From a virus (lineage: Duplodnaviria; Caudoviricetes), in IMG/VR virus record IMGVR_UViG_3300022909_000060, positions 1 to 36,044 of that record: 36,044 bases of DNA. One strand, given 5' to 3'. The notes under the pieces were generated by a model, which saw nothing but the letters and a program-made list of their open reading frames with translations, ran no database searches and was not told where the DNA came from. Position 1 is the first letter of the stretch. Each line of letters starts with the position of its first letter. Shown here one piece after another: positions 442-21,304 of this stretch. Position numbers and translations under genes: made by a program.

Positions 442-1029
442 ATGGACAATCTTGACTCAAGTTTAATTCGAATTCTTGGAATTGGAGTTGTTATTATTTT
501 TCTTGCGTCTTACGCAGGTGAGAGGGCTCACGGTCAAGTTATTCAAACAGAGAGCATTACTGAAAGCACCATCACTACAAACGGAAAAACGGAGACTACT
601 TTAAAATCTCCCCCTCCTTCAGCAATTTCTCCTACTATCAACACTTCAAACTCTGACTTGTGTACTTTTGGAGTAGCAGGAGCGATTCAAACACAAATTC
701 TTGGAATCTCGACAGGTACGCAGTTCACAGACGAAAACTGTGAGAGATTAAAAAATTCAAAAACTCTTTATGATATGGGTATGAAAGTAGCCGCAGTTTC
801 GCTGATGTGCCAAGACCAACGCGTCTTTGACGCAATGATGCACGCCGGAACTCCTTGCCCTTATAATGGAATGATTGGAGATGCGGCGAAAGCAGGCTGG
901 GCGAGCGATTCCGGCGAAGAGCCTTCTTCTATAGAAGAGGATGAAAGTATATTAAATGATAAAGACGTTCAAACAGGTGCTGCTACCGGCGGCATTGGTG
1001 CTTTACTCGCATTACTCTTACTCCTCTGA
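442..1029 (+). CDS. exported Cys-containing protein with C-terminal hydrophobic anchor (envelope operon ORF1)
   Basis: N-terminal signal-like segment, four Cys, amphipathic beta-hairpin candidate CTFGVAGAIQTQILGISTG..DENC, ends GGIGALLALLLLL. Confidence 0.75.
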   Translation: MDNLDSSLIRILGIGVVIIFLASYAGERAHGQVIQTESITESTITTNGKTETTLKSPPPSAISPTINTSNSDLCTFGVAGAIQTQILGISTGTQFTDENCERLKNSKTLYDMGMKVAAVSLMCQDQRVFDAMMHAGTPCPYNGMIGDAAKAGWASDSGEEPSSIEEDESILNDKDVQTGAATGGIGALLALLLLL

Positions 1030-1813
1030 AATTGTAAATGGAGCGACCCCGAACGCAGCATTGTCGGGGTATCACTGGGTAATGACTAATTTGCTTCCAC
1101 AGCAGGCAGGATTAACTGTGAACAATATATTTTACCGCTATACTACGGAAAAAGAGCGAGAGGATAGCATGATTGTGTATGTTCAGAACGAAGATACATT
1201 GAACGAAGGGCAATACATATTTCGTAGTGTAGATGACTGGACGGGGTTACCTGGCAATACAATTGTTAAAAGCGTTCCTTTGCCAGAGCTTTTAGGTTCT
1301 CGATTCGGAGATGGTTCTATAGAAGTAGAAGGCTCAGGTACAGTTTCGGATGCAACGGTAATTTACTCATACCGTTACGACCCTTGCTTCAATCCTCAGT
1401 CAGATCCATCTTGCGAAGGTTATATACCTGAGATACCGGAAATACCAGAGCCGGAAGATCCTCTTGAAGATGAGTATGTACAAGATGAATTAGATCGAAA
1501 AGCAGTAATGAGAAATGCGGAAGACGAAGAGGAAGAGCGAGAGAGCGTAGAAAAGAATGCAGAAGAAGTCGATGAAGACTTTTTAGAGGCTCGACTCGGA
1601 CTTACAAGTGTAATAACCCTTGAAACTGCAACGCTACCAGTTTCTGCACTTCCATCGACATATAACTTAACGCTTCCTGATGGTGTACTGCCGTCAGGAA
1701 AGCCGCTAAAAGATTCTGTGAATATTGCACAGAGTAATCGAAGGTTGCAGTTTGCCCAAGATAAAATGCACTTAGACTTAGTAAAGTCACAGTATAGGAG
1801 AAATACGAAATGA
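956..1813 (+). CDS. exported protein, possible tip or adhesin component (envelope operon ORF2)
   Basis: Signal peptide, beta-rich N-domain, DPCFNPQSDPSCEGY disulfide motif, PEIPEIPEPE linker, acidic helical region. Confidence 0.7.
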   Translation: MIKTFKQVLLPAALVLYSHYSYSSEIVNGATPNAALSGYHWVMTNLLPQQAGLTVNNIFYRYTTEKEREDSMIVYVQNEDTLNEGQYIFRSVDDWTGLPGNTIVKSVPLPELLGSRFGDGSIEVEGSGTVSDATVIYSYRYDPCFNPQSDPSCEGYIPEIPEIPEPEDPLEDEYVQDELDRKAVMRNAEDEEEERESVEKNAEEVDEDFLEARLGLTSVITLETATLPVSALPSTYNLTLPDGVLPSGKPLKDSVNIAQSNRRLQFAQDKMHLDLVKSQYRRNTK

Positions 1814-2304
1814 AAATGAAAACCTTTTTAGCAGCCGCTGTTTTTTCGGCATCTGTTGCTGCAGAGAACGTACCAATTAATGGAACTGTTGAAGGTCAGT
1901 GTGTTGTAATTCCAGATATTTCTGGTGTGTACGGCAACCCTTCTTCAGACAAGTTGAGCACTTCGCCAATAGATGGAGGTGTAAAGCCTTCAGTACGATT
2001 TGACGTAATTATTGCAGACTACTACAAAGCTGTCATCACTACTCCAACTCAGTTTAGTGCTGCACCCGCTTTGAACGACGTAGTAAACTGGACAGGTGAT
2101 GTACTTGTAAAAGAAGTAACAGATCCTCTCATGTCTGACTATGACACTAATAAAGTAGAATACAATGATACTACTGAGTATGACCTGACTGTTGCAGGTA
2201 GTACTTGGTTTGAAATGGATTCTACAGCAGAATATGGTTATAACAAGCCATTCCCTGCAGGACAATACACAGCAGTAGTAGAAGCGAACTGTATCGCAAA
2301 ATGA
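1810..2304 (+). CDS. fimbrial/pilin-like subunit (envelope operon ORF3)
   Basis: Signal peptide ending SVAA; mature N-terminus VPINGTVEGQC resembles the pilin I-x-G-x-V-x-x-x-C donor strand; C-terminus PAGQYTAVVEANC resembles the pilin G-x-Y/F-x-A strand; 164 aa. Confidence 0.6.
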   Translation: MKMKTFLAAAVFSASVAAENVPINGTVEGQCVVIPDISGVYGNPSSDKLSTSPIDGGVKPSVRFDVIIADYYKAVITTPTQFSAAPALNDVVNWTGDVLVKEVTDPLMSDYDTNKVEYNDTTEYDLTVAGSTWFEMDSTAEYGYNKPFPAGQYTAVVEANCIAK

Positions 2305-2678
2305 AATCTTTTGTTTTTCTCCTACTGTTTCTAGGAGTGAGTGCAGCTTCGGCTCACTCCTGGACTCCTACCTATTTTGAGTTTAGACCTTCTCATCTAG
2401 CGGGAGTGTATGTAACGGAGATGACATTATTCAACAAGCGAGAGGACGCAACGTATTATTCCGTAGAAGTACGAGATAAAGATTTTAACTCAGTTTCTTT
2501 TCGCACTAGTTCACCATTTTATGCGATAGAGTATTTAGAAAAGCAAAAGATTCGTGTATATGTTTCTCAAAAAGACTTAGATAAAGCCTTATACATTTGC
2601 TCTCGTTCCCGATTTCCAGCAGGTACAAAAGCGAGTAGTTTAGTGAGTTCTCGAATATGTTCAAAAGTACGCCCTTAA
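2301..2678 (+). CDS. single-domain PapD-like periplasmic chaperone (envelope operon ORF4)
   Basis: Signal peptide ending ASA; TPTY..MTLFN..YSVEV..PFYAI..KQKIRVY pattern like the PapD N-domain; ends RICSKVRP (cf. RIKLFYRP); Cys pair in the last strands. Confidence 0.55.
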   Translation: MKSFVFLLLFLGVSAASAHSWTPTYFEFRPSHLAGVYVTEMTLFNKREDATYYSVEVRDKDFNSVSFRTSSPFYAIEYLEKQKIRVYVSQKDLDKALYICSRSRFPAGTKASSLVSSRICSKVRP

Positions 2679-3094
2679 TATTATTATGTTTAATAAGTTT
2701 TTCTGCTTTTGCACAAAACTCCAATCTAAATTTGTCGATTCCTCAAACCCCGCAGTCATATCAATCTGATAGAGTGAGAGCAGGAGATTTGGAGTGCTCT
2801 GCAGCAATTGGGTCTTCGACAAACGTTGAGTTCGGGGTCGTAGGAATTTTAAATCAACAAGATCCTACATACTTTGCTTCGGCTACAGATCCTTATTTTA
2901 ATTATAATCCAGATTCGTTTATAAAAGATGTAGGCGTCTATGGAAAGATTACAATTCCTTTGGGAGCACCAAAGGAAAGACTAAATTGTAATACTCTTTA
3001 CCAACTAGAATTAAGAAAGAAAAGATTAGAAGTACAAAGACTTGAACAAGAATTGCAGCAGCTAAGAGCAATGCAATTTGTAGGAGATGAGTAG
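2657..3094 (+). CDS. exported protein with beta-hairpin and coiled coil, possible oligomeric outer-membrane component (envelope operon ORF5)
   Basis: Signal peptide ending AFA; two Cys flanking amphipathic strands TNVEFGVVG and DVGVYGKITIPLG; C-terminal heptads LEVQRLEQELQQL. Confidence 0.65.
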   Translation: MFKSTPLILLCLISFSAFAQNSNLNLSIPQTPQSYQSDRVRAGDLECSAAIGSSTNVEFGVVGILNQQDPTYFASATDPYFNYNPDSFIKDVGVYGKITIPLGAPKERLNCNTLYQLELRKKRLEVQRLEQELQQLRAMQFVGDE

Positions 3095-3576
3095 TGGCAA
3101 CTGAAATAGAAATCGGAGGAGTAAAATTTACTGGCGGAAAAGCTTTCGCAATCATAACTGCTCTTTCAACTGCAGCCGGTGTTGTATGGGGGGCCGCTGA
3201 ATTCTGGGGAGACTATATGGGCATGAGAGAGCGTATCGAAAGCTATGAAAGTCCAGACTTATCCCACATAGAACAGACTCTTGCAGTACAAAGTGAAGAG
3301 ATGGCCACACTACGAACAATTATGGAGACTTTAGAAATAAAAGTAGATAATACAGAAGATAGTCTTTCTGAAGATATGGACAAAGTACAAGACCTTGCTA
3401 GAAAAGTTGATGATAAAACTGCAGAGACTCAACGTGAAGTTAGAGACGATGTATATGCAATGGAACAAAAGTTGAACGATAGAATGCGAGGGCTTGATAG
3501 TGACCTGCGTACTCTTCGTAAAGATTTAGAAGAAAAGATCCAGCTCATACTGGACAATCCTTTGAATGACCAATAG
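3094..3576 (+). CDS. membrane-anchored coiled-coil protein (envelope operon ORF6)
   Basis: GTG start overlapping the previous TAG; one TM segment (AFAIITALSTAAGVVWGAA) followed by a long charged heptad region. Confidence 0.75.
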   Translation: MATEIEIGGVKFTGGKAFAIITALSTAAGVVWGAAEFWGDYMGMRERIESYESPDLSHIEQTLAVQSEEMATLRTIMETLEIKVDNTEDSLSEDMDKVQDLARKVDDKTAETQREVRDDVYAMEQKLNDRMRGLDSDLRTLRKDLEEKIQLILDNPLNDQ

Positions 3577-11505: not shown

Positions 11506-11534
11506 TTGACAAATTATCTCTATCTGAGTATAAT
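11506..11534 (+). promoter_or_regulatory. consensus sigma70 promoter; predicted +1 coincides with the terS ATG
   Basis: TTGACA-17 nt-TATAAT, then 6 nt, then ATG at 11541. Confidence 0.9.
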
Positions 11535-11540
11535 TAGAAC

Positions 11541-12005
11541 ATGACTAAAGAAGTAACAACCATATCGCCGGAAGGACTCGAAGTTGCCAATTGTTATTTG
11601 CAGTATGGCAACATTCGTGCTGTATGCGAATACATGGGCGTTCCAGAAAATAAAGTAGTCGAAGTTTTAAATAAACGAGAAGTAAAAAAGTATATTGATA
11701 CTGTTTACTTGGATATGGGCTATCGTAATAAGAATAATATTGCGACTGTTCTAGACGAAATGATACAAAGCAAACTGGAAGAAGCTCAGGAAACTGGCGT
11801 TTACTCTTCAAAGGATCTTGCTGACCTACTTCAAATGGCACATAAAATGAGAATGGATGAGATTAAAGCTCAAGCAGACTTATTGAAAGTTGAAAGTACA
11901 AATATTCGTAATCAAACAAATGTTCAGATTAACGATACTGCGCTACCTTTTGGACAAGGCAACTATGGCAAGCTCATGGAAAAGTTGTTAAATGGAAACG
12001 GGTGA
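11541..12005 (+). CDS. terS: terminase small subunit, T5-like
   Basis: ISPEGLEVANCYL, HTH-like segment, SSKDLADLL..HKMRMDE; lies upstream of terL. Confidence 0.8.
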   Translation: MTKEVTTISPEGLEVANCYLQYGNIRAVCEYMGVPENKVVEVLNKREVKKYIDTVYLDMGYRNKNNIATVLDEMIQSKLEEAQETGVYSSKDLADLLQMAHKMRMDEIKAQADLLKVESTNIRNQTNVQINDTALPFGQGNYGKLMEKLLNGNG

Positions 12006-12210
12006 TAAAAATAAACTTATTCAGCTTGAGCGAGAACTAGCTTCACATGAAATACAATGTGAAGAACGTTGGAAAACTACTTTTAATCGTCTTGAAGATA
12101 TTGAAAGCGGAATAAAACGAATTGAAAGCAGAATTATACTAGCCGGAGGAAGTATTATAGTTTTTCTGGCAGGAGTCATAGGTTCGCTATTGACTAAGGG
12201 TGGATTATGA
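11992..12210 (+). CDS. XhlA/holin-like small membrane protein
   Basis: HE..CEERW coiled coil followed by a single C-terminal TM helix. Confidence 0.55.
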   Translation: METGDKNKLIQLERELASHEIQCEERWKTTFNRLEDIESGIKRIESRIILAGGSIIVFLAGVIGSLLTKGGL

Positions 12211-12449
12211 TTTTTGAAAAACGCGGACGTTGGTGTTACCGAGATCCAAAGGGAAAGCTACATAAGTTTTCTTCTGAAGAAGCAGCACGCGAGTATGCAG
12301 GAGAGCAGCCTGCTCCTGTACAAAACTTTCATGAGGCTATAGAAACTCCTGTTATTACGGAGGAAAATTTCTCTGAGTCTTTTGAAGATGAGAATCCAGT
12401 CACTGAAAATGGCCAAGACTGGAAAGATTGGTCTCCGGGAGAGATGTAA
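12207..12449 (+). CDS. hypothetical protein, 80 aa, acidic C-terminus
   Basis: ATGA-coupled ORF. Confidence 0.65.
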   Translation: MIFEKRGRWCYRDPKGKLHKFSSEEAAREYAGEQPAPVQNFHEAIETPVITEENFSESFEDENPVTENGQDWKDWSPGEM

Positions 12450-12520
12450 TGTGGACTAAACCCAGCGCAATTGATATGCGATTCGGTTTCGAAGTTACGA
12501 TGTACGTAGCTAGGAGTTAA
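12449..12520 (+). CDS. pqqA: PQQ precursor peptide PqqA (MWTKPSAIDMRFGFEVTMYVARS)
   Basis: 23 aa with WTKP and RFGFEVTMY, including the E-x-x-x-Y pair; TAATG coupling and upstream GGAG; missed by the ORF track. Confidence 0.92.
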   Translation: MWTKPSAIDMRFGFEVTMYVARS

Positions 12521-12522
12521 AC

Positions 12523-12696
12523 ATGCCAGCAGGAAAAGGAACTTATGGAAAGCGTCGTGGACGTCCTTCAAAGAAAAAGCCCATGAAAGGAAAAAAGAAA
12601 AAGTCAATGGGACTGACCGCAGCACAGAAAAAGCTACCGATGGCTCTTCAAAAGGCCATAATGAAGAAGAAGCGTGGCGGCAAGAAAAAGAAGTAA
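12523..12696 (+). CDS. very basic 57-aa protein with an AT-hook-like RRGRPSK motif
   Basis: AGGAG SD at 12512-12516; 24/57 residues K/R and no D/E; missed by the track. Confidence 0.75.
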   Translation: MPAGKGTYGKRRGRPSKKKPMKGKKKKSMGLTAAQKKLPMALQKAIMKKKRGGKKKK

Positions 12697-12862
12697 GGGC
12701 AGAGCGGCGAAAAAGAGACCCGTGCCTACAAACAAAAAGTTGTACGCACGAGTAAAGGCACAAGCCAAACGTAAATTTAAAGTTTACCCTTCGGCTTATG
12801 CAAATGGTTGGCTTGTAAAAACTTACAAAGCGCAAGGCGGTAAATACCGCATGGGAAAATAG
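12674..12862 (+). CDS. small basic protein
   Basis: P.NKKLYARVK..AK.KF..YPSAYA..W....YK..GG.Y pattern; K/R-rich. Confidence 0.75.
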   Translation: MAARKRSKGRAAKKRPVPTNKKLYARVKAQAKRKFKVYPSAYANGWLVKTYKAQGGKYRMGK

Positions 12863-12863
12863 T

Positions 12864-12941
12864 ATGGAATTTGTAATTGGAGTTGTACTCGGTGCAGCAG
12901 CTCATTGGGCTTGGGTAAAGTGGGGCCCTGTTCGTGGCTAA
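12864..12941 (+). CDS. 25-aa membrane microprotein (MEFVIGVVLGAAAHWAWVKWGPVRG)
   Basis: Exactly fills the gap between two ORFs; hydrophobic and Trp-rich. Confidence 0.55.
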   Translation: MEFVIGVVLGAAAHWAWVKWGPVRG

Positions 12942-13221
12942 ACCACGAGGTGGTCTAACTAAATGGTTTAAAGAAAAATGGGTAGATATCTCTCGTCCAA
13001 AAAAGGGCGGGGGATATATGCCTTGTGGTCGTAAGACTTCTAAGAAAGGTAAGTATCCAAAATGTGTTCCAGCTTCTAAAGCAGCACGCATGACACCAGC
13101 ACAAAGAAAGTCTGCAATTCGTAGAAAAAGAGCAGCCGGTAATCCCGGAGGCAAGCCGACTATGGTAAAGACATTTACCAAGCGAAAAGCGAGAATGAGG
13201 CGTGCCCGTAAGAAAGGTTAA
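12934..13221 (+). CDS. small basic protein (DUF5872-like)
   Basis: GLTKWFKEKWVD...CGR...YPKC.P..KA..MT pattern; K/R-rich. Confidence 0.7.
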   Translation: MAKPRGGLTKWFKEKWVDISRPKKGGGYMPCGRKTSKKGKYPKCVPASKAARMTPAQRKSAIRRKRAAGNPGGKPTMVKTFTKRKARMRRARKKG

Positions 13222-13345
13222 AGGCGGATATAAGTGGGGTAAGTCTGGAAAGGTTTACAAAACTCGTAAAGCAGCTTTAAAGCAAGCCAGAGCAATTTAT
13301 GCTTCTGGATATGGAAAAAAGCGTGGCCGTAAAAAGAAAAGGTAG
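13202..13345 (+). CDS. 47-aa basic protein (MPVRKVKGGYKWGKSGKVY...KQARAIYASGY...)
   Basis: GTG start; overlaps both neighbours; missed by the track. Confidence 0.65.
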   Translation: MPVRKVKGGYKWGKSGKVYKTRKAALKQARAIYASGYGKKRGRKKKR

Positions 13346-13628
13346 AAAGAAGGATCCTCGGTTAGCACGTGCTAAGGTAAAGGGGTATAACAAACCAAAA
13401 CGTACTCCAGGCCACCCGAAGAAGTCCCACATCGTCGTAGCAAAGGTAGGTGATAAAGTCAAAACGATTCGATTTGGGCAGCAAGGCGCAAAAACAGCGG
13501 GTAAGCCAAAGAAAGGGGAAAGCACTGCAATGAAGAAAAAGCGTGCGTCTTTTAAAGCTCGTCATCGCAGAAACATTGCAAAGGGCAAAATGAGCGCAGC
13601 TTATTGGGCAGATAAGGTGAAGTGGTGA
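13323..13628 (+). CDS. small basic protein (IRFGQQG...SFKARH...SAAYWA.K.KW)
   Basis: Track ORF 13299-13628; start moved to GTG 13323 to match the local overlap pattern. Confidence 0.75.
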   Translation: MAVKRKGRKKDPRLARAKVKGYNKPKRTPGHPKKSHIVVAKVGDKVKTIRFGQQGAKTAGKPKKGESTAMKKKRASFKARHRRNIAKGKMSAAYWADKVKW

Positions 13629-14406: not shown

Positions 14407-14733
14407 ATGGAAGAAGAAATGAAAGAAAAGGGGTTTCATCCAGCAGATACAAATGGAGATGGTAAAGTATCTCCCGAAGAGCATAAAATGTATATGGAGT
14501 TTAAGCGTAAAGAGCTAGAAGATGCAGATGCAATGCGAGATGCTCAACGTAATATGACTTGGTTTGCTTTATTCGGAATGTTATTGTACCCAGCTTTGGT
14601 TTTAGGAGCAGATTTTATAAATTTAGACAAGTCAGCAGATATACTAGGAGATATGGCACCGACCTACTTTGTAGCGGTTGCAGGCTTGGTAGCAGCGTTC
14701 TTCGGCGCACAGGCGTACCAAAAAGGAAAATAA
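14407..14733 (+). CDS. holin-like two-TM protein with an N-terminal EF-hand-like loop
   Basis: DTNGDGKVSPEE loop, two TM helices, basic C-terminus, upstream of spanin-like genes. Confidence 0.6.
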   Translation: MEEEMKEKGFHPADTNGDGKVSPEEHKMYMEFKRKELEDADAMRDAQRNMTWFALFGMLLYPALVLGADFINLDKSADILGDMAPTYFVAVAGLVAAFFGAQAYQKGK

Positions 14734-15202: not shown

Positions 15203-15625
15203 ATGTTCGGAATGTTAAAAATGCTTCCTTTAGTACTAGCAATAGCTGGAGCAGGGTATGCTTACCATACTACAAAAGTAAGTCAACTAGAGGCTGCTGT
15301 AGCAAAACTAGAAAGAGATAAAGTAATTCTACAAGAAAATGCAATTCGACTAGAAGCGGGGTGGGAAAGAGAAGTAGCGGCCCGAGAGCAGATAGAAGCA
15401 AATCTTGAAAAACAGATAAAAGTAGTAGGAGAACTTACTGAAAAGAATACTGCAATGCAGGCTGAAATGGATGATTATCTGTCAATTTTTAAGCGGCATA
15501 ATCTGACAAAGTTAGCACGAGCCAAACCTGGATTGATAGAGCCTCGTATTAACAATGGTACTGCAGAAGTATTCAGAGCAATAGAAGAAGCGAGTAAAGA
15601 GGTTGAAAATGCGGATTCTTTATAG
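15203..15625 (+). CDS. inner-membrane spanin (Rz-like)
   Basis: N-terminal TM plus long coiled coil; overlaps a downstream lipoprotein gene. Confidence 0.7.
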   Translation: MFGMLKMLPLVLAIAGAGYAYHTTKVSQLEAAVAKLERDKVILQENAIRLEAGWEREVAAREQIEANLEKQIKVVGELTEKNTAMQAEMDDYLSIFKRHNLTKLARAKPGLIEPRINNGTAEVFRAIEEASKEVENADSL

Positions 15626-16040
15626 TTTATTATTGATTTTAACAGTAGCGGGTTGTTCAAGTTTTACTCCGTCTTTGCCAGAACCAGAAGTGCGAATTAA
15701 AACTGTTACGGAGTTTCGCACTTTAGACATATATCAACCTCCTCTGCCAAAAGAAATTGGTTTACAAGATGTAGAATTTTTTGTAGTTACAGAAAAGAAT
15801 TTTGAAGAACAAGTAAAAAGGCTGCAAAAAATTCAAGATGGCACATACGTACTCTTTGGTCTGACTCCACAAGACTACGAAAATATGGCATATAATTTAC
15901 AAGAACTTCGTAGATATATACGTCAACAAAAAGAAATAATTATCTATTACCGTAAAGCTACACAAAGTGACGAAGGTACTGATTCACAAGATTGGATAGA
16001 AAGAAACCAAGAAGTTCTTGAAGATCAACAATCTGAGTAA
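15609..16040 (+). CDS. outer-membrane spanin lipoprotein (Rz1-like)
   Basis: MRILYSLLLILTVAG-C lipobox, Pro-rich segment, GAGG SD. Confidence 0.7.
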   Translation: MRILYSLLLILTVAGCSSFTPSLPEPEVRIKTVTEFRTLDIYQPPLPKEIGLQDVEFFVVTEKNFEEQVKRLQKIQDGTYVLFGLTPQDYENMAYNLQELRRYIRQQKEIIIYYRKATQSDEGTDSQDWIERNQEVLEDQQSE

Positions 16041-16045
16041 TTTAT

Positions 16046-17350
16046 ATGGCGGTACAAGTAAGTAGAGCTGATATTATATCACAAGAAATTTTAGATTTAC
16101 AATCTGAGACACGTTTCTTAAAACTACCAATAGATCCATATTTGGATTTATTAGGAGTTGTTCCTCTTCCATCACAAAATGCAATTATAAATGCGATAAA
16201 TAATTCTAAATATCGCTTTGTTTGTGCAGCGGTTTCTCGGCGTCAAGGAAAAACCTATATCGCAAACATTATTGGGCAATTAGTATCACTAGTTCCCAAT
16301 TCAAACATTCTCATAATGTCCCCTAACTATGCACTGTCTCAGATTTCTTTTGATTTACAGAGAAATCTTATTAAGCACTTTGATCTGGAAGTTGCAAAAG
16401 ACAATGCAAAGGACAAAGTTATAGAATTAACTAACGGGTCTACAATCCGCATGGGCTCGATAAATCAAGTAGATTCCTGCGTAGGTAGAAGTTACGACTT
16501 GATTATATTTGATGAGGCAGCGTTAGCAGACGGAAAGGATGCTTTTAATGTTGCACTTCGACCTACTCTAGATAAAGAGAATTCAAAAGCTTTGTTTATC
16601 TCTACACCTCGGGGTAGGAACAACTGGTTTGCTGAATTTTTTGATAGAGGTTTTAATGATGAATTTTCCGAATGGTGCTCGATACGAGCGACTTATCAAG
16701 ATAATCCTCGAATGTCTGAGAGCGATATTGAGGAGGCTCGAAAAAGTATGTCCGATGCTGAGTTCCGACAAGAGTACGAAGCAGATTTCAATACTTATGA
16801 AGGACAGATATGGAACTTCGATCACGAAAAATGTATAGTAAATAATGACGTTTTAGAAACTCGAAGAATGGATGTATTTGCGGGACTTGACGTTGGTTAT
16901 CGAGACCCAACTGCTTTTTGCGTTGTTGCTTATGATTGGGATGAAGGTCTGTACTATGTACTGGATGAATACCTGGACGCCGAAAAAACAACGGAACAAC
17001 ACGCGGTAGTAATTAGAGATATGATTGATAAGTATGATATTGATTATGTATATATAGATTCCGCAGCACAGCAGACTCGATATGACTTTGCACAAAATTA
17101 TGATATTTCAACTGTAAATGCAAAAAAGTCGGTACTAGATGGAATCGCTCACGTAGCGGGTATAGTTGACAATGATACTTTAATGGTCGATCAAAGATGC
17201 GGAGAAGTGTTAGCCTGCTTAGATCAATATCAATGGGATCCAAATCCAAATCTGGCAAAAGAAAAGCCAAAGCATAATCGAGCCTCACACATGGCGGATG
17301 CACTTCGATATGCTTTGTACTCTTTCGAAACAAGCCAGAGCGGGTTTTAA
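16046..17350 (+). CDS. terL: terminase large subunit, T5-like
   Basis: Walker A SRRQGKT, Walker B LIIFDEAA, ISTP, nuclease motifs GLDVG and HMADALRY. Confidence 0.95.
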   Translation: MAVQVSRADIISQEILDLQSETRFLKLPIDPYLDLLGVVPLPSQNAIINAINNSKYRFVCAAVSRRQGKTYIANIIGQLVSLVPNSNILIMSPNYALSQISFDLQRNLIKHFDLEVAKDNAKDKVIELTNGSTIRMGSINQVDSCVGRSYDLIIFDEAALADGKDAFNVALRPTLDKENSKALFISTPRGRNNWFAEFFDRGFNDEFSEWCSIRATYQDNPRMSESDIEEARKSMSDAEFRQEYEADFNTYEGQIWNFDHEKCIVNNDVLETRRMDVFAGLDVGYRDPTAFCVVAYDWDEGLYYVLDEYLDAEKTTEQHAVVIRDMIDKYDIDYVYIDSAAQQTRYDFAQNYDISTVNAKKSVLDGIAHVAGIVDNDTLMVDQRCGEVLACLDQYQWDPNPNLAKEKPKHNRASHMADALRYALYSFETSQSGF

Positions 17351-18981: not shown

Positions 18982-19287
18982 ATGGCAGTTAGACAAAAAC
19001 AGCTAGTTTTGGACATTGCATATAAGCACTTCAAAGAATTTGAACTGCCACTCGACATTGAGTATAAGTCTTACATGAATATCGTTGGGCCTAAAGAAGC
19101 TCTTCACGCTATTTCAGTTAAGCGCAGCTTTAAAGCATGGAAGTATTTAATTCACGCGTTAAAAGTCGCTCATCCAGATTTATTGGAGCCGCCTAAGCCC
19201 GCACCAACCCCTGCACCAAAGGCAGTCAAGCCTAGTCCTTTGAGCAAGCCTGCCCCTGCAGAAGAAATGGATAGTGACGATGAATAA
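18982..19287 (+). CDS. hypothetical protein with Pro-rich tail
   Basis: ORF between portal and protease. Confidence 0.65.
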   Translation: MAVRQKQLVLDIAYKHFKEFELPLDIEYKSYMNIVGPKEALHAISVKRSFKAWKYLIHALKVAHPDLLEPPKPAPTPAPKAVKPSPLSKPAPAEEMDSDDE

Positions 19288-21304
19288 GATTTTTAATCTA
19301 ACTTCTACGTTCAAGTCTTTAGATATAGATGACGATGGGGGCGTACATATTTGTGGTATGGCTAGTACCTCTGATTTTGATCGTGCAGGCGATACTATTG
19401 ATGCAACTGCGTGGACAAAAGGTGGTTTAGCCAATTTTGAAAAGAATCCTATTATTCTTTTTAATCATGACTATAACCACCCAATTGGTAGAGCAACTGG
19501 TGTCAAGGTCACTGAAAACGGCCTTGAGCTAAAAGCAAAAATTTCAAAAAGTGCTGTAGTACCTTCTGGTGCTGTAGCGGACCTTGTTAAAGACGGTGTC
19601 CTTGGAGCCTTTTCTGTCGGTTTCCGAGTCAAGGATGCTGATTATCTTAGTGAAACCGACGGATTAAAGATTAAGGATGCTGAATTATTCGAGGTATCAG
19701 TTGTATCTGTACCTTGTAATCAGGCAGCAACTTTTTCATTGGCTAAGTCTTTTGACTCAATAGATGAGTACGAAGATTTCAAAAAACAATTTAAAAACTG
19801 TGTGGATCTAGCCGGTCAGTCTCTGGCTAAAACTGAAGATTCAGAAGTAGCTAGTGACACACCGGAAAGGGACTACAAAGTCCAAAAGGAGATCAAAATG
19901 TCGGAAGAGAACAAAACTCCCGAAATCGACCTGGAAGCATTCGCGAAGCGCGTAGCAGATGAGACTGCTGCAAAGATCGCAATGAAGCAGGCTGAAGAAA
20001 AAGCTGCTGCAGAGAAAGCTGCTGCAGAAGCTCAAGAGAAAGCTGCTGCAGAAGCAGAAGCAAAAGCTGCTCAAGAAGAAGAAGTAAAGTCAGCTATCAA
20101 AGTTGGCGTTGAGTCAGGCGCTGAGCGCTTGGTTGCTGACGTTGAAGCTAAGCTGGCTGAAAAAGATGCTTCTATTGAAGAAGTACTCGCTAAGTACAAG
20201 GCTGACTTGGAAGAGAAGAACGAAGAGCTTACCAAAATGCGTGAGTCTAAGCGCGTATTTGCTGACCGTGCAGAAAAGGGCGACCTTTCTAAGTGGGGCA
20301 AAGACTTTATGTATGGCCACCTTCTCGGCGTAATGACTGGCAAGGGCTGGGATACTGACTATTCACGTGGTATTATGGAAAAGGCCGGTATCAACTATGC
20401 AGCTAACGCTGCTGATATTGCACAAGAAGTTTCTACTCGTATCGAGAAAGAAATTATGCTTGAGCTGAAGCTTGCACAAGCATTCCGTGAGCTTACTATC
20501 AATTCTCAGACTCAGGTACTGCCGATTCAAACTGATGCAGGTCCTGCAGCTTGGGGTTCAAACACTGATACAGCAGGTAACTTGGAGAACCGTCCAGAAG
20601 TTACTAACGCTCAGTACAATGCTAAGCAAGTAATCCTGAAAGCTACTCGATTGATTTCGACCACTTTCATGGACAACAACATTGATGAAGAAGTTCTTGT
20701 TAACTTGATGCCAATGCTTGTTGAGTCTGTTGCACGTGCTCACGCTCGCGCTGTAGACAATGCTATCATTAACGGTACTTCTGGTGGTGCTGAAGGCTTT
20801 AACGGTCTTGAGGCTCTTGCTGGTACTAACCTGTTTGCAACTGATGTTACTGCTGCCGGTGTTGGTGCTGTTACTGCATCTGACTTCTTGGACGCACGTA
20901 AGCTGATGGGTAAGTATGGCATGATGCCTGAAGACTTGGTATACGTTGTATCGCAGAAGCGTTACTACGACCTGATTGCTGATGCTGGCTTTGCTGACAT
21001 CACTGATGTAGGTTCAGACGTTGCTACCAAGATCACTGGTTCAGTTGGTGCTATCTACGGTACTCCTGTAGTAGTATCTGACCAACTCGAAGCAGAAGCT
21101 GCAAGTGCCTCTATGGGCTACGCTGTTAACGTTCGAAACCACGTAATTCCTCGTCTCCGCGGTGTATCTGTAGAGCAAGATTACGAAGTACTAAACCAGC
21201 GTCGAGTAATCGTTGCTAGCCAGTCTCTTGGCTTCAACCAGCTCGTTGCTAACAACGGTACTACTGACGTATCTGTTGTTAAGATTGTCCAAGCGGCATC
21301 TTAA
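19280..21304 (+). CDS. prohead protease fused in-frame to the HK97-fold major capsid protein
   Basis: Protease motifs DRAGD, ILFNHD..PIG, FSVGF, EVSVVSVPCN; then Ala/Glu/Lys scaffolding domain and capsid fold; no stop between them; start may be GTG 19274. Confidence 0.92.
   Translation: MNKIFNLTSTFKSLDIDDDGGVHICGMASTSDFDRAGDTIDATAWTKGGLANFEKNPIILFNHDYNHPIGRATGVKVTENGLELKAKISKSAVVPSGAVADLVKDGVLGAFSVGFRVKDADYLSETDGLKIKDAELFEVSVVSVPCNQAATFSLAKSFDSIDEYEDFKKQFKNCVDLAGQSLAKTEDSEVASDTPERDYKVQKEIKMSEENKTPEIDLEAFAKRVADETAAKIAMKQAEEKAAAEKAAAEAQEKAAAEAEAKAAQEEEVKSAIKVGVESGAERLVADVEAKLAEKDASIEEVLAKYKADLEEKNEELTKMRESKRVFADRAEKGDLSKWGKDFMYGHLLGVMTGKGWDTDYSRGIMEKAGINYAANAADIAQEVSTRIEKEIMLELKLAQAFRELTINSQTQVLPIQTDAGPAAWGSNTDTAGNLENRPEVTNAQYNAKQVILKATRLISTTFMDNNIDEEVLVNLMPMLVESVARAHARAVDNAIINGTSGGAEGFNGLEALAGTNLFATDVTAAGVGAVTASDFLDARKLMGKYGMMPEDLVYVVSQKRYYDLIADAGFADITDVGSDVATKITGSVGAIYGTPVVVSDQLEAEAASASMGYAVNVRNHVIPRLRGVSVEQDYEVLNQRRVIVASQSLGFNQLVANNGTTDVSVVKIVQAAS
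19898..21304 (+). CDS. major capsid protein from an internal in-frame start, 468 aa
   Basis: AAGGAG-6 nt-ATG at 19898, in frame with the protease. Confidence 0.8.
   Translation: MSEENKTPEIDLEAFAKRVADETAAKIAMKQAEEKAAAEKAAAEAQEKAAAEAEAKAAQEEEVKSAIKVGVESGAERLVADVEAKLAEKDASIEEVLAKYKADLEEKNEELTKMRESKRVFADRAEKGDLSKWGKDFMYGHLLGVMTGKGWDTDYSRGIMEKAGINYAANAADIAQEVSTRIEKEIMLELKLAQAFRELTINSQTQVLPIQTDAGPAAWGSNTDTAGNLENRPEVTNAQYNAKQVILKATRLISTTFMDNNIDEEVLVNLMPMLVESVARAHARAVDNAIINGTSGGAEGFNGLEALAGTNLFATDVTAAGVGAVTASDFLDARKLMGKYGMMPEDLVYVVSQKRYYDLIADAGFADITDVGSDVATKITGSVGAIYGTPVVVSDQLEAEAASASMGYAVNVRNHVIPRLRGVSVEQDYEVLNQRRVIVASQSLGFNQLVANNGTTDVSVVKIVQAAS
19990..20075 (+). repeat. coding EKAAAE-type repeats in the capsid scaffolding domain
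   Basis: AAAGCTGCTGCAGA occurs three times, plus a partial copy. Confidence 0.7.

What the first reader, a model, noticed from the sequence alone, without database searches (positions are those of the whole stretch)
12449..12520. Stand-alone phage pqqA (PQQ cofactor precursor peptide) in the packaging/lysis operon
Seen: a 23-aa ORF MWTKPSAIDMRFGFEVTMYVARS, coupled to the upstream gene by TAATG, whose last codons also contain the SD of the next gene. No pqqB-E is present in the window. Established: PqqA is the ribosomal precursor whose Glu and Tyr (E-x-x-x-Y) are cross-linked by the radical-SAM enzyme PqqE with PqqD. It is consumed stoichiometrically to make PQQ for periplasmic methanol, alcohol and glucose dehydrogenases. 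Inference: the phage supplies only the consumable substrate to boost host PQQ and respiration, a 72-nt auxiliary metabolic gene; alternatively it is a decoy for PqqD/E. It also implies a PQQ-using host such as a methylotroph or other proteobacterium. I recall pqqA-like annotations in uncultured phages, so its presence may not be unprecedented, but I know of no functional test.
Basis: partly seen in the sequence, partly recalled or inferred. Interest (0 to 1): 0.88.

Follow-up and report, generated by a model that had tools for sequence, protein, structure and literature searches.

The report
Phage-borne PQQ precursor gene pqqA
A T5-like estuarine phage carries an intact 23-codon copy of pqqA, the peptide bacteria use up to make the cofactor PQQ, with none of the processing enzymes in its sequenced part, likely to keep a probably methanol-eating host making PQQ during infection; phage pqqA has been reported before, but it is common, mostly unannotated and apparently untested.

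Summary
Observation confirmed. 12449-12520 passes the PqqA cut-offs (PF08042 42.6 vs 21.1 bits; TIGR02107 40.7 vs 20), keeps Glu15/Tyr19, has an SD plus TAATG coupling, and holds the next gene's SD. No pqqB-E lies in this 37%-complete T5-like phage record. It is an accessory insert: 1 of 68 related clusters has pqqA in this slot, and of another sequence type. Orphan viral pqqA is widespread (about 3,300 IMG/VR stretches estimated), under purifying selection, and keeps E-x3-Y in 120 of 120 copies picked by leader alone. It sits unannotated in all six Methylophilaceae phage isolates returned from 50,697 phage records. The nearest cellular peptides are Methylophilaceae, which keep a median of 4 matches per genome. 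Best reading (0.65): a substrate-only auxiliary gene that feeds host PqqB-E; function and host are inferred. Viral pqqA as an auxiliary gene is in print (Lake Baikal, PMC7678222), and this scan found it before on other DNA (194 notes). Value lies in prevalence and testability in cultured OM43 phages.

The parts
12449..12520 (+). pqqA, 23-aa PQQ precursor peptide; Glu15 and Tyr19 form the E-x3-Y core
12437..12451 (+). SD (GGGAG) and TAATG stop/start overlap coupling the upstream gene to pqqA
   Evidence: sequence; 26 of 30 distinct junctions in relatives have TAATG/TGATG at the start of the downstream basic gene
12512..12525 (+). AGGAG SD of the next gene inside the last pqqA codons, which likely explains the atypical Arg-Ser end
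   Evidence: sequence; Asn at position 22 in 102 of 111 other viral copies; the causal link is inferred
11506..11534 (+). perfect sigma-70 consensus promoter (12 of 12) upstream of terS; likely drives the unit that contains pqqA
   Evidence: consensus match only
11541..12005 (+). terminase small subunit (context)
   Evidence: phrog_3802 E 7.6e-39
12207..12449 (+). 80-aa upstream gene with an acidic tail, no family (context)
12523..13628 (+). run of small lysine/arginine-rich genes including DUF5872 (context); homologues also flank a second viral pqqA type
15203..17350 (+). two Rz-like spanins and terminase large subunit (context)

Best explanation
The phage carries an intact orphan pqqA whose peptide is likely translated during infection and is predicted to be processed by the host's own PqqD/PqqE, protease, PqqB and PqqC into PQQ, which would keep a probably methylotrophic (Methylophilaceae-like) host's periplasmic dehydrogenases supplied with cofactor. 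Shown: the gene, its intact leader and core, its coupling signals, its absence from most relatives, its spread across unrelated phages and the purifying selection on it. From the literature: PqqA is the consumed precursor, bound by PqqD and cross-linked at Glu/Tyr by PqqE.
For: Family cut-offs passed. In other viral copies 116 of 118 have an ATG, 117 of 118 an SD-like motif and 117 of 118 a stop at the same place; pN/pS at the 13 codons not fixed by the search pattern is 0.23/0.62, and 0.09/0.53 for the Methylophilaceae type. 120 of 120 copies picked by leader alone keep E-x3-Y. 0 of 80 viral loci have pqqB-E against 74 of 80 bacterial loci. Of 12 hits in 50,697 phage records, 9 are the six Methylophilaceae isolates. 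151 of 151 Methylophilaceae genomes have pqqA, median 4 matches, and 27 genomes of at most 1.4 Mb keep a median of 3; PMC4109929 reports 3-12 pqqA copies with single pqqB-G. Nearest cellular peptides are Methylophilaceae, 17 of 19 residues against at most 15 elsewhere. RNA contigs cover the gene in 6 of 6 metatranscriptomes. Two different pqqA types occupy the same slot in this clade.
Against: No experiment links viral PqqA to PQQ or burst size. The host already has several copies, so extra supply may not be limiting; PMC9851590 names PqqB and PqqC as possibly rate-limiting. The gene is dispensable in this clade: absent from 67 of 68 clusters and from 2 of 2 near-complete relatives. No cellular peptide identical to this one was found; the Ala-Ile/Val-Asp/Glu-Met motif occurs in 1 of 361 Methylophilaceae genomes, and all 5 metagenome hits are phage contigs. 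Position in a packaging/lysis unit suggests late expression, leaving less time for a metabolic gain. RNA evidence is contigs only, without strand or level, probably from one campaign.
Confidence: 0.65

Rival explanations
1. PQQ is made from the viral peptide, but the gain is not methanol respiration: it serves as a redox protectant or supports a non-methylotroph's glucose or alcohol dehydrogenase.
For: The host of this T5-like clade is unknown. A sister lineage carries a different PqqA type (Tyr at position 7) not found in 401 Gammaproteobacteria genomes searched. An antioxidant role of PQQ is recalled, not from a call.
Against: Among isolates the gene is confined to methylotroph phages although the search also detects the distant Acinetobacter type. 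The nearest cellular peptides are Methylophilaceae.
Confidence: 0.13
2. Near-neutral hitch-hiker: a short, highly expressed host gene picked up by recombination and carried along with the mobile cassette of small basic genes.
For: Patchy in this clade (1 of 68 clusters plus this phage). 39 of 67 Tyr7-type viral copies lie beside homologues of the same basic genes. L456 shows a mosaic break just downstream.
Against: Low pN/pS and intact start, SD and stop across 111 distinct viral alleles. Presence in all six methylophage isolates returned, in unrelated gene contexts. The insert preserves coupling on both sides.
Confidence: 0.12
3. Decoy or sink: the peptide occupies PqqD/PqqE, or another peptide-binding host protein such as a defence component, without yielding useful PQQ.
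For: This allele differs from host peptides at positions 8-9 and at the C-terminus. PMC11118758 reports a host PqqA-annotated family co-expressed with PD-T7-2 and type II RM systems (correlation only).
Against: 120 of 120 leader-selected viral copies keep both reactive residues. The commonest viral peptide is identical to a named Methylophilaceae PqqA (L005), and an identical peptide is a substrate. The odd C-terminus is explained by the embedded SD.
Confidence: 0.08
4. DNA-level role, such as an integration or recombination site matching host pqqA copies, or cellular contamination of the assembly.
For: Methylophilaceae hold many orphan copies (10 of 40 loci have pqqB within about 1.5 kb), so lack of pqqB-E alone does not prove a viral origin.
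Against: Synonymous sites vary freely (pS 0.53-0.62). The gene is flanked by terS and terL and recurs in five other assemblies. 45 of 47 sampled viral loci have PHROG hits.
Confidence: 0.02

Closest known systems
Viral PqqA of Lake Baikal population VP_266 (Coutinho et al. 2020, PMC7678222; passages read)
   Same: Phage-encoded PqqA proposed as an auxiliary gene that boosts PQQ in Methylophilaceae hosts; untested.
   Different: That virus is T4-like, freshwater, and also reported to encode methanol dehydrogenase. This one is T5-like, estuarine, and pqqA is coupled into the terminase/spanin unit with no other PQQ-related gene seen in the sequenced 37%.
Orphan pqqA copies of Methylophilaceae (PF08042/TIGR02107; PMC4109929 passages)
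   Same: Length 23, Met-Trp start, Ala7, MRFGFEVTMYV core, up to 19 of 23 identical; often away from pqqB-E.
   Different: Viral location; Ile8-Asp9 and an Arg-Ser end that doubles as an SD.
Unannotated pqqA of the isolates Venkman, MEP301, MEP401, MEP402, Melnitz and P19250A
   Same: Orphan, intact, with SD; 15-18 of 23 identical.
   Different: Other phage families and gene contexts; most have no overlap coupling to neighbours.
T5-like phages (Demerecviridae) as the backbone
   Same: Best isolate hits are Pectobacterium DU_PP_V/My1, T5-like Vibrio and enteric phages: TerL about 49%, protease/capsid about 36%; relatives of 95-101 kb.
   Different: An uncultured clade; protease and capsid are one ORF; no isolate above 60% identity.

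Membership tests
PqqA (PF08042 / TIGR02107) | Score above curated cut-offs | tested here: met
   42.6 vs 21.1 and 40.7 vs 20 bits
PqqA (PF08042 / TIGR02107) | Glu-x3-Tyr core near the C-terminus | tested here: met
   Glu15, Tyr19; role of these residues from PMC10906245 passages
PqqA (PF08042 / TIGR02107) | Short stand-alone ORF with N-terminal leader and translation signals | tested here: met
   23 aa, W-x-x-P leader, SD and TAATG
PqqA (PF08042 / TIGR02107) | Bound by PqqD, cross-linked by PqqE, converted to PQQ | not testable with these tools
   needs biochemistry; the peptide is below the complex-prediction size limit
pqqABCDE biosynthetic operon | pqqB-E adjacent to pqqA | tested here: not met
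   none in the window; it is not filed as an operon. Orphan copies are normal in Methylophilaceae
Auxiliary metabolic gene | Host-type metabolic gene flanked by viral hallmark genes | tested here: met
   between terS and spanins/terL; five other assemblies
Auxiliary metabolic gene | Expressed during infection | tested here: inconclusive
   covered by contigs in 6 of 6 RNA runs, both junctions bridged in 5 of 6; no strand or level
Auxiliary metabolic gene | Alters host metabolism to the phage's benefit | not testable with these tools
   no experiment available
Demerecviridae (T5-like) | Family-level genome similarity and phylogeny | tested here: inconclusive
   best hits are T5-like at 36-49% identity; no tree built

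The most novel reading that the evidence does not exclude
pqqA is a near-universal, repeatedly captured, substrate-only auxiliary gene of methylotroph phages. By supplying just the consumed 23-residue precursor after host shut-off, thousands of unrelated aquatic phages keep PQQ synthesis and methanol oxidation running in infected cells, and the peptide type marks the host. This phage would then be a T5-like virus of OM43-type bacteria, a group absent from the isolates returned here, that gained the gene in a slot its clade has filled twice.
Probability: 0.45. Interest if true: 0.72.

Novelty: new member of a known kind. Interest (0 to 1): 0.5.

Why it matters
If functional, it shows a phage can steer a cofactor pathway with 72 bases by supplying the consumed precursor, with no enzyme, and that infected methylotrophs may keep oxidising methanol in coastal water. 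Gene callers miss it: none of the six GenBank isolate regions inspected names it, and 8 of 10 viral peptides looked up are absent from a 15-billion-protein collection. Because cultured phage-host pairs carry it, the question is directly testable. The idea itself is already in print for one uncultured virus.

Tried and rejected
Host assignment did not resolve. The GTDB scan for the Ala-x-Asp-Met type gave 114 loci, mostly Burkholderiales and relatives at 13-16 of 23, best 18 of 23 in a Methylophilaceae genome. The metagenome scan gave 5 loci, all phage. IscU of a complete relative gave no taxon names. The 70-kb metagenome contig of this phage is not held. The Tyr7 type was found in 0 of 401 Gammaproteobacteria; other classes were not searched. 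PMC12542740 (passages) has nothing on phage pqqA. The 168-aa reverse-strand ORF 12329-12835 was rejected as the real gene: it shrinks to 52 aa in variant L456 while pqqA is unchanged. A phage-encoded radical SAM partner was not found in this record or two near-complete relatives. An integration-site role was rejected on free synonymous change. RNA cover thins upstream of 11,500 in several runs, but the runs were found with this stretch, so it is not used to place the transcript start. NCBI taxonomy lists other methylophages (HIM624-A, phiHIMB624-A, MEP431-434, Venkman EXVC038S, MG-MtP1, RSA-MfP1); none was returned, EXVC038S seems absent from the collection, and the rest could not be checked, so 'all isolates' means the six returned. 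The tail genes beyond 21,359 were not scanned against Pfam.

Full report
Observation. Its ATG overlaps the TAA of the 80-aa upstream gene, a GGGAG lies 7 nt before it, and its last codons contain AGGAG 6 nt before the next ATG at 12523. It passes PF08042 (42.6 bits, cut-off 21.1) and TIGR02107 (40.7, cut-off 20) and is the only match in the record. A profile built from other viral copies scores it 57.5 bits; 200 shuffled windows reach at most 12.6. PqqB, C, D and the N-terminal part of PqqE give no tblastn hit in the window, nor do TIGR02109 or radical SAM profiles. The record is a 36-kb, about 37%-complete virus fragment.

The phage. Neighbours are terS, a run of small basic genes (DUF5872), two spanins, terL, HNH, portal and a fused protease-capsid gene. 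Best isolate hits are T5-like at 36-49% identity; two near-complete relatives are 95 and 101 kb. A 12-of-12 sigma-70 consensus promoter lies at 11506-11534, just before terS, so pqqA probably belongs to the packaging/lysis transcript. The stretch occurs in 20 runs, 19 salt marsh and 1 estuary, 6 of them RNA; the salt-marsh runs may be one campaign. Contigs cover pqqA in 6 of 6 RNA runs and bridge both junctions in 5 of 6. DNA run X1 is nearly flat while RNA runs X18 and X19 show capsid contigs near depth 200 against 0-8 around them, a hint that these libraries hold transcripts of an active infection. Contigs give no strand or level.

An accessory insert. Of 101 related loci that span the slot (68 clusters), one cluster, L164/L393, has pqqA, and it is a different type with Tyr7. 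Whole-record searches of 27 further relatives found none, including 2 of 2 near-complete ones; 3 positive controls rang. In relatives the downstream basic gene starts at TAATG/TGATG in 26 of 30 distinct junctions. Here pqqA has taken that junction and supplies a new SD for the next gene, which likely explains its Arg-Ser end where 102 of 111 other viral alleles have Asn22. The same 72 nt recur in L328 and L453-L456. In L456 the upstream gene differs at about 27 of 243 nt (my count) and the sequence diverges again about 50 nt downstream, while pqqA is unchanged, which points to recent modular exchange. The closest different allele, 19 of 21 residues, is in an unrelated phage contig, L452.

Spread among phages. 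A pattern scan of IMG/VR returned 120 loci and an estimate of about 3,300 stretches from 3 of 64 parts. Of 118 analysable, 116 have an ATG, 117 an SD-like motif (loose test) and 117 a stop at the same position; 81 are of Methylophilaceae type. At codons not fixed by the pattern pN/pS is 0.23/0.62. pqqB-E are found beside 0 of 80 viral loci against 74 of 80 bacterial loci. Because host orphans are common (10 of 40 Methylophilaceae loci have pqqB within about 1.5 kb), I checked viral origin: I sent 94 of 150 prepared proteins, from 47 of the first 50 loci (three apparent repeats dropped); 45 of 47 have a PHROG hit at E of 1e-8 or better, 11 of them structural or packaging genes, most others replication or recombination genes. 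A second scan fixed only the leader; 120 of 120 copies keep Glu15 and Tyr19. A Tyr7 type has 67 loci, none with pqqB-E, 39 of them beside homologues of this window's basic genes.

Isolates. In 50,697 phage records tblastn gives 12 hits: 9 records of six Methylophilaceae phages (Venkman, MEP301, MEP401, MEP402, Melnitz x4, P19250A), one uncultured spring phage and two Acinetobacter 'phage' contigs, of which the one inspected is a bacterial pqq operon. A second query returns the same 12. In the six isolate regions inspected the gene is unannotated or overlaid by an antisense 'hypothetical'. Other methylophage names in NCBI taxonomy could not be checked.

Host. 151 of 151 Methylophilaceae genomes have pqqA, 701 matches, median 4; 27 genomes of at most 1.4 Mb keep a median of 3 (matches are not strictly copies). 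Over residues 2-20 the best cellular matches are Methylophilaceae at 17 of 19. Other bacteria reach 15, both in the 114-locus GTDB scan and in 28 of the 30 top loci of a 400-genome Gammaproteobacteria sample, all with Tyr/Phe7 (that sample had 60 positives, a tally that includes four unpublished genomes whose sequences were not used). No exact cellular match exists in what was searched. A Methylophilaceae-type source is therefore likely; that this phage infects one is inferred, and its clade's second type argues for mixed hosts.

Mechanism. PqqA binds PqqD, is cross-linked Glu-Tyr by PqqE and is processed by a protease, PqqB and PqqC (PMC10906245, passages). One peptide yields at most one PQQ. 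Methylophilaceae multiply pqqA but not the enzymes (PMC4109929, passages). In a PQQ-overproducing mutant pqqA and pqqE expression rose most, though that paper also names PqqB and PqqC as possibly limiting (PMC9851590, passages). That T5-like phages shut off host expression, and that PQQ is lost by excretion and adduct formation, is recalled, not from a call. On this basis the phage likely replaces the one consumed component and leaves catalysis to surviving host enzymes (0.65). Rivals: PQQ made for another benefit or host (0.13), hitch-hiking (0.12), decoy (0.08), DNA-level role or contamination (0.02).

What is known. PMC7678222 (passages) reports viral PqqA as an auxiliary gene in a T4-like Baikal virus of Methylophilaceae. 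PMC13188868 (passages) lists viral pqqA, D and E among auxiliary genes. Main-text searches of the isolate papers found no mention of the gene: PMC8163748, PMC8024684 and PMC10580990 have 0 'pqq', PMC9004378 has 1, in the medium recipe; their supplements were not read, and the P19250A paper was not read. PMC13037479 and PMC12801897 (passages) add nothing. Nine library searches (listings) showed no functional test and no survey of prevalence; subscription journals are mostly outside the library. This scan noted phage pqqA before on other DNA, 194 notes in at least 148 genomes, looked up after my own result on the isolates.

Verdict. A real gene and a new member of a known kind. What this window adds is a T5-like carrier, clean translational splicing into the late operon, two independent captures in one slot, and evidence against a dead-core decoy. 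Interest 0.5, resting on prevalence and on the cultured phage-host pairs that make the test possible.

Noticed in passing
window 442-3576: Six adjacent genes, several with N-terminal hydrophobic or signal-like starts and only unnamed PHROG hits. The 164-aa gene at 1810-2304 matches viral clusters in the ESM Atlas and, at 0.94, a spore-coat-U domain cluster (15% of members). Possibly a fimbria-like module; similar genes sit next to terS in L456.
   Followed up: partly
window 12523-13628: Run of very basic small proteins conserved across the clade and found in unrelated marine phages; the 109-aa gene has a weak hit to a minor head/DNA pilot family (phrog_220, E 0.003). The run often flanks viral pqqA.
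   Followed up: partly
window 14407-14733: 108-aa protein with an EF-hand-like motif (below cut-off) and hydrophobic helices, just upstream of the spanins; possibly a calcium-binding membrane or lysis protein. A homologue directly follows pqqA in L013/L614, L649 and L676.
   Followed up: no
window 11992-12210: 72-aa protein with a below-cut-off match to GTA head formation protein NF048001.
   Followed up: no
window 12476-12508, run X17: A foreign contig with a Methylophilaceae-type pqqA leader aligns here and lifts the bin to depth 182 against about 6 for the phage, so a host-type pqqA sequence is abundant in that RNA library.
   Followed up: no
L207:2461-2556 and L209:2067-2195: GenBank annotates antisense 'hypothetical proteins' over the real pqqA in Melnitz and in MW202481.
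   Followed up: yes
L208: 'Acinetobacter phage MD-2021a' record CAKLQF020000010.1 holds ppk and a full pqqA-E operon and looks like a bacterial contig.
   Followed up: yes
L608:1560-1937 and L612:2092-2688 (G154): The complete relative carries an IscU/NifU gene (PF01592) and a gene that looks like polyphosphate kinase 2 (recalled label, not tested).
   Followed up: partly
L613-L679: A second viral PqqA type (Tyr7, Phe20) in 67 IMG/VR loci with no cellular source found in 401 Gammaproteobacteria genomes.
   Followed up: partly
window 19274-21304: Prohead protease and major capsid protein are one 676-aa ORF, whereas T5-like isolates annotate two genes.
   Followed up: no
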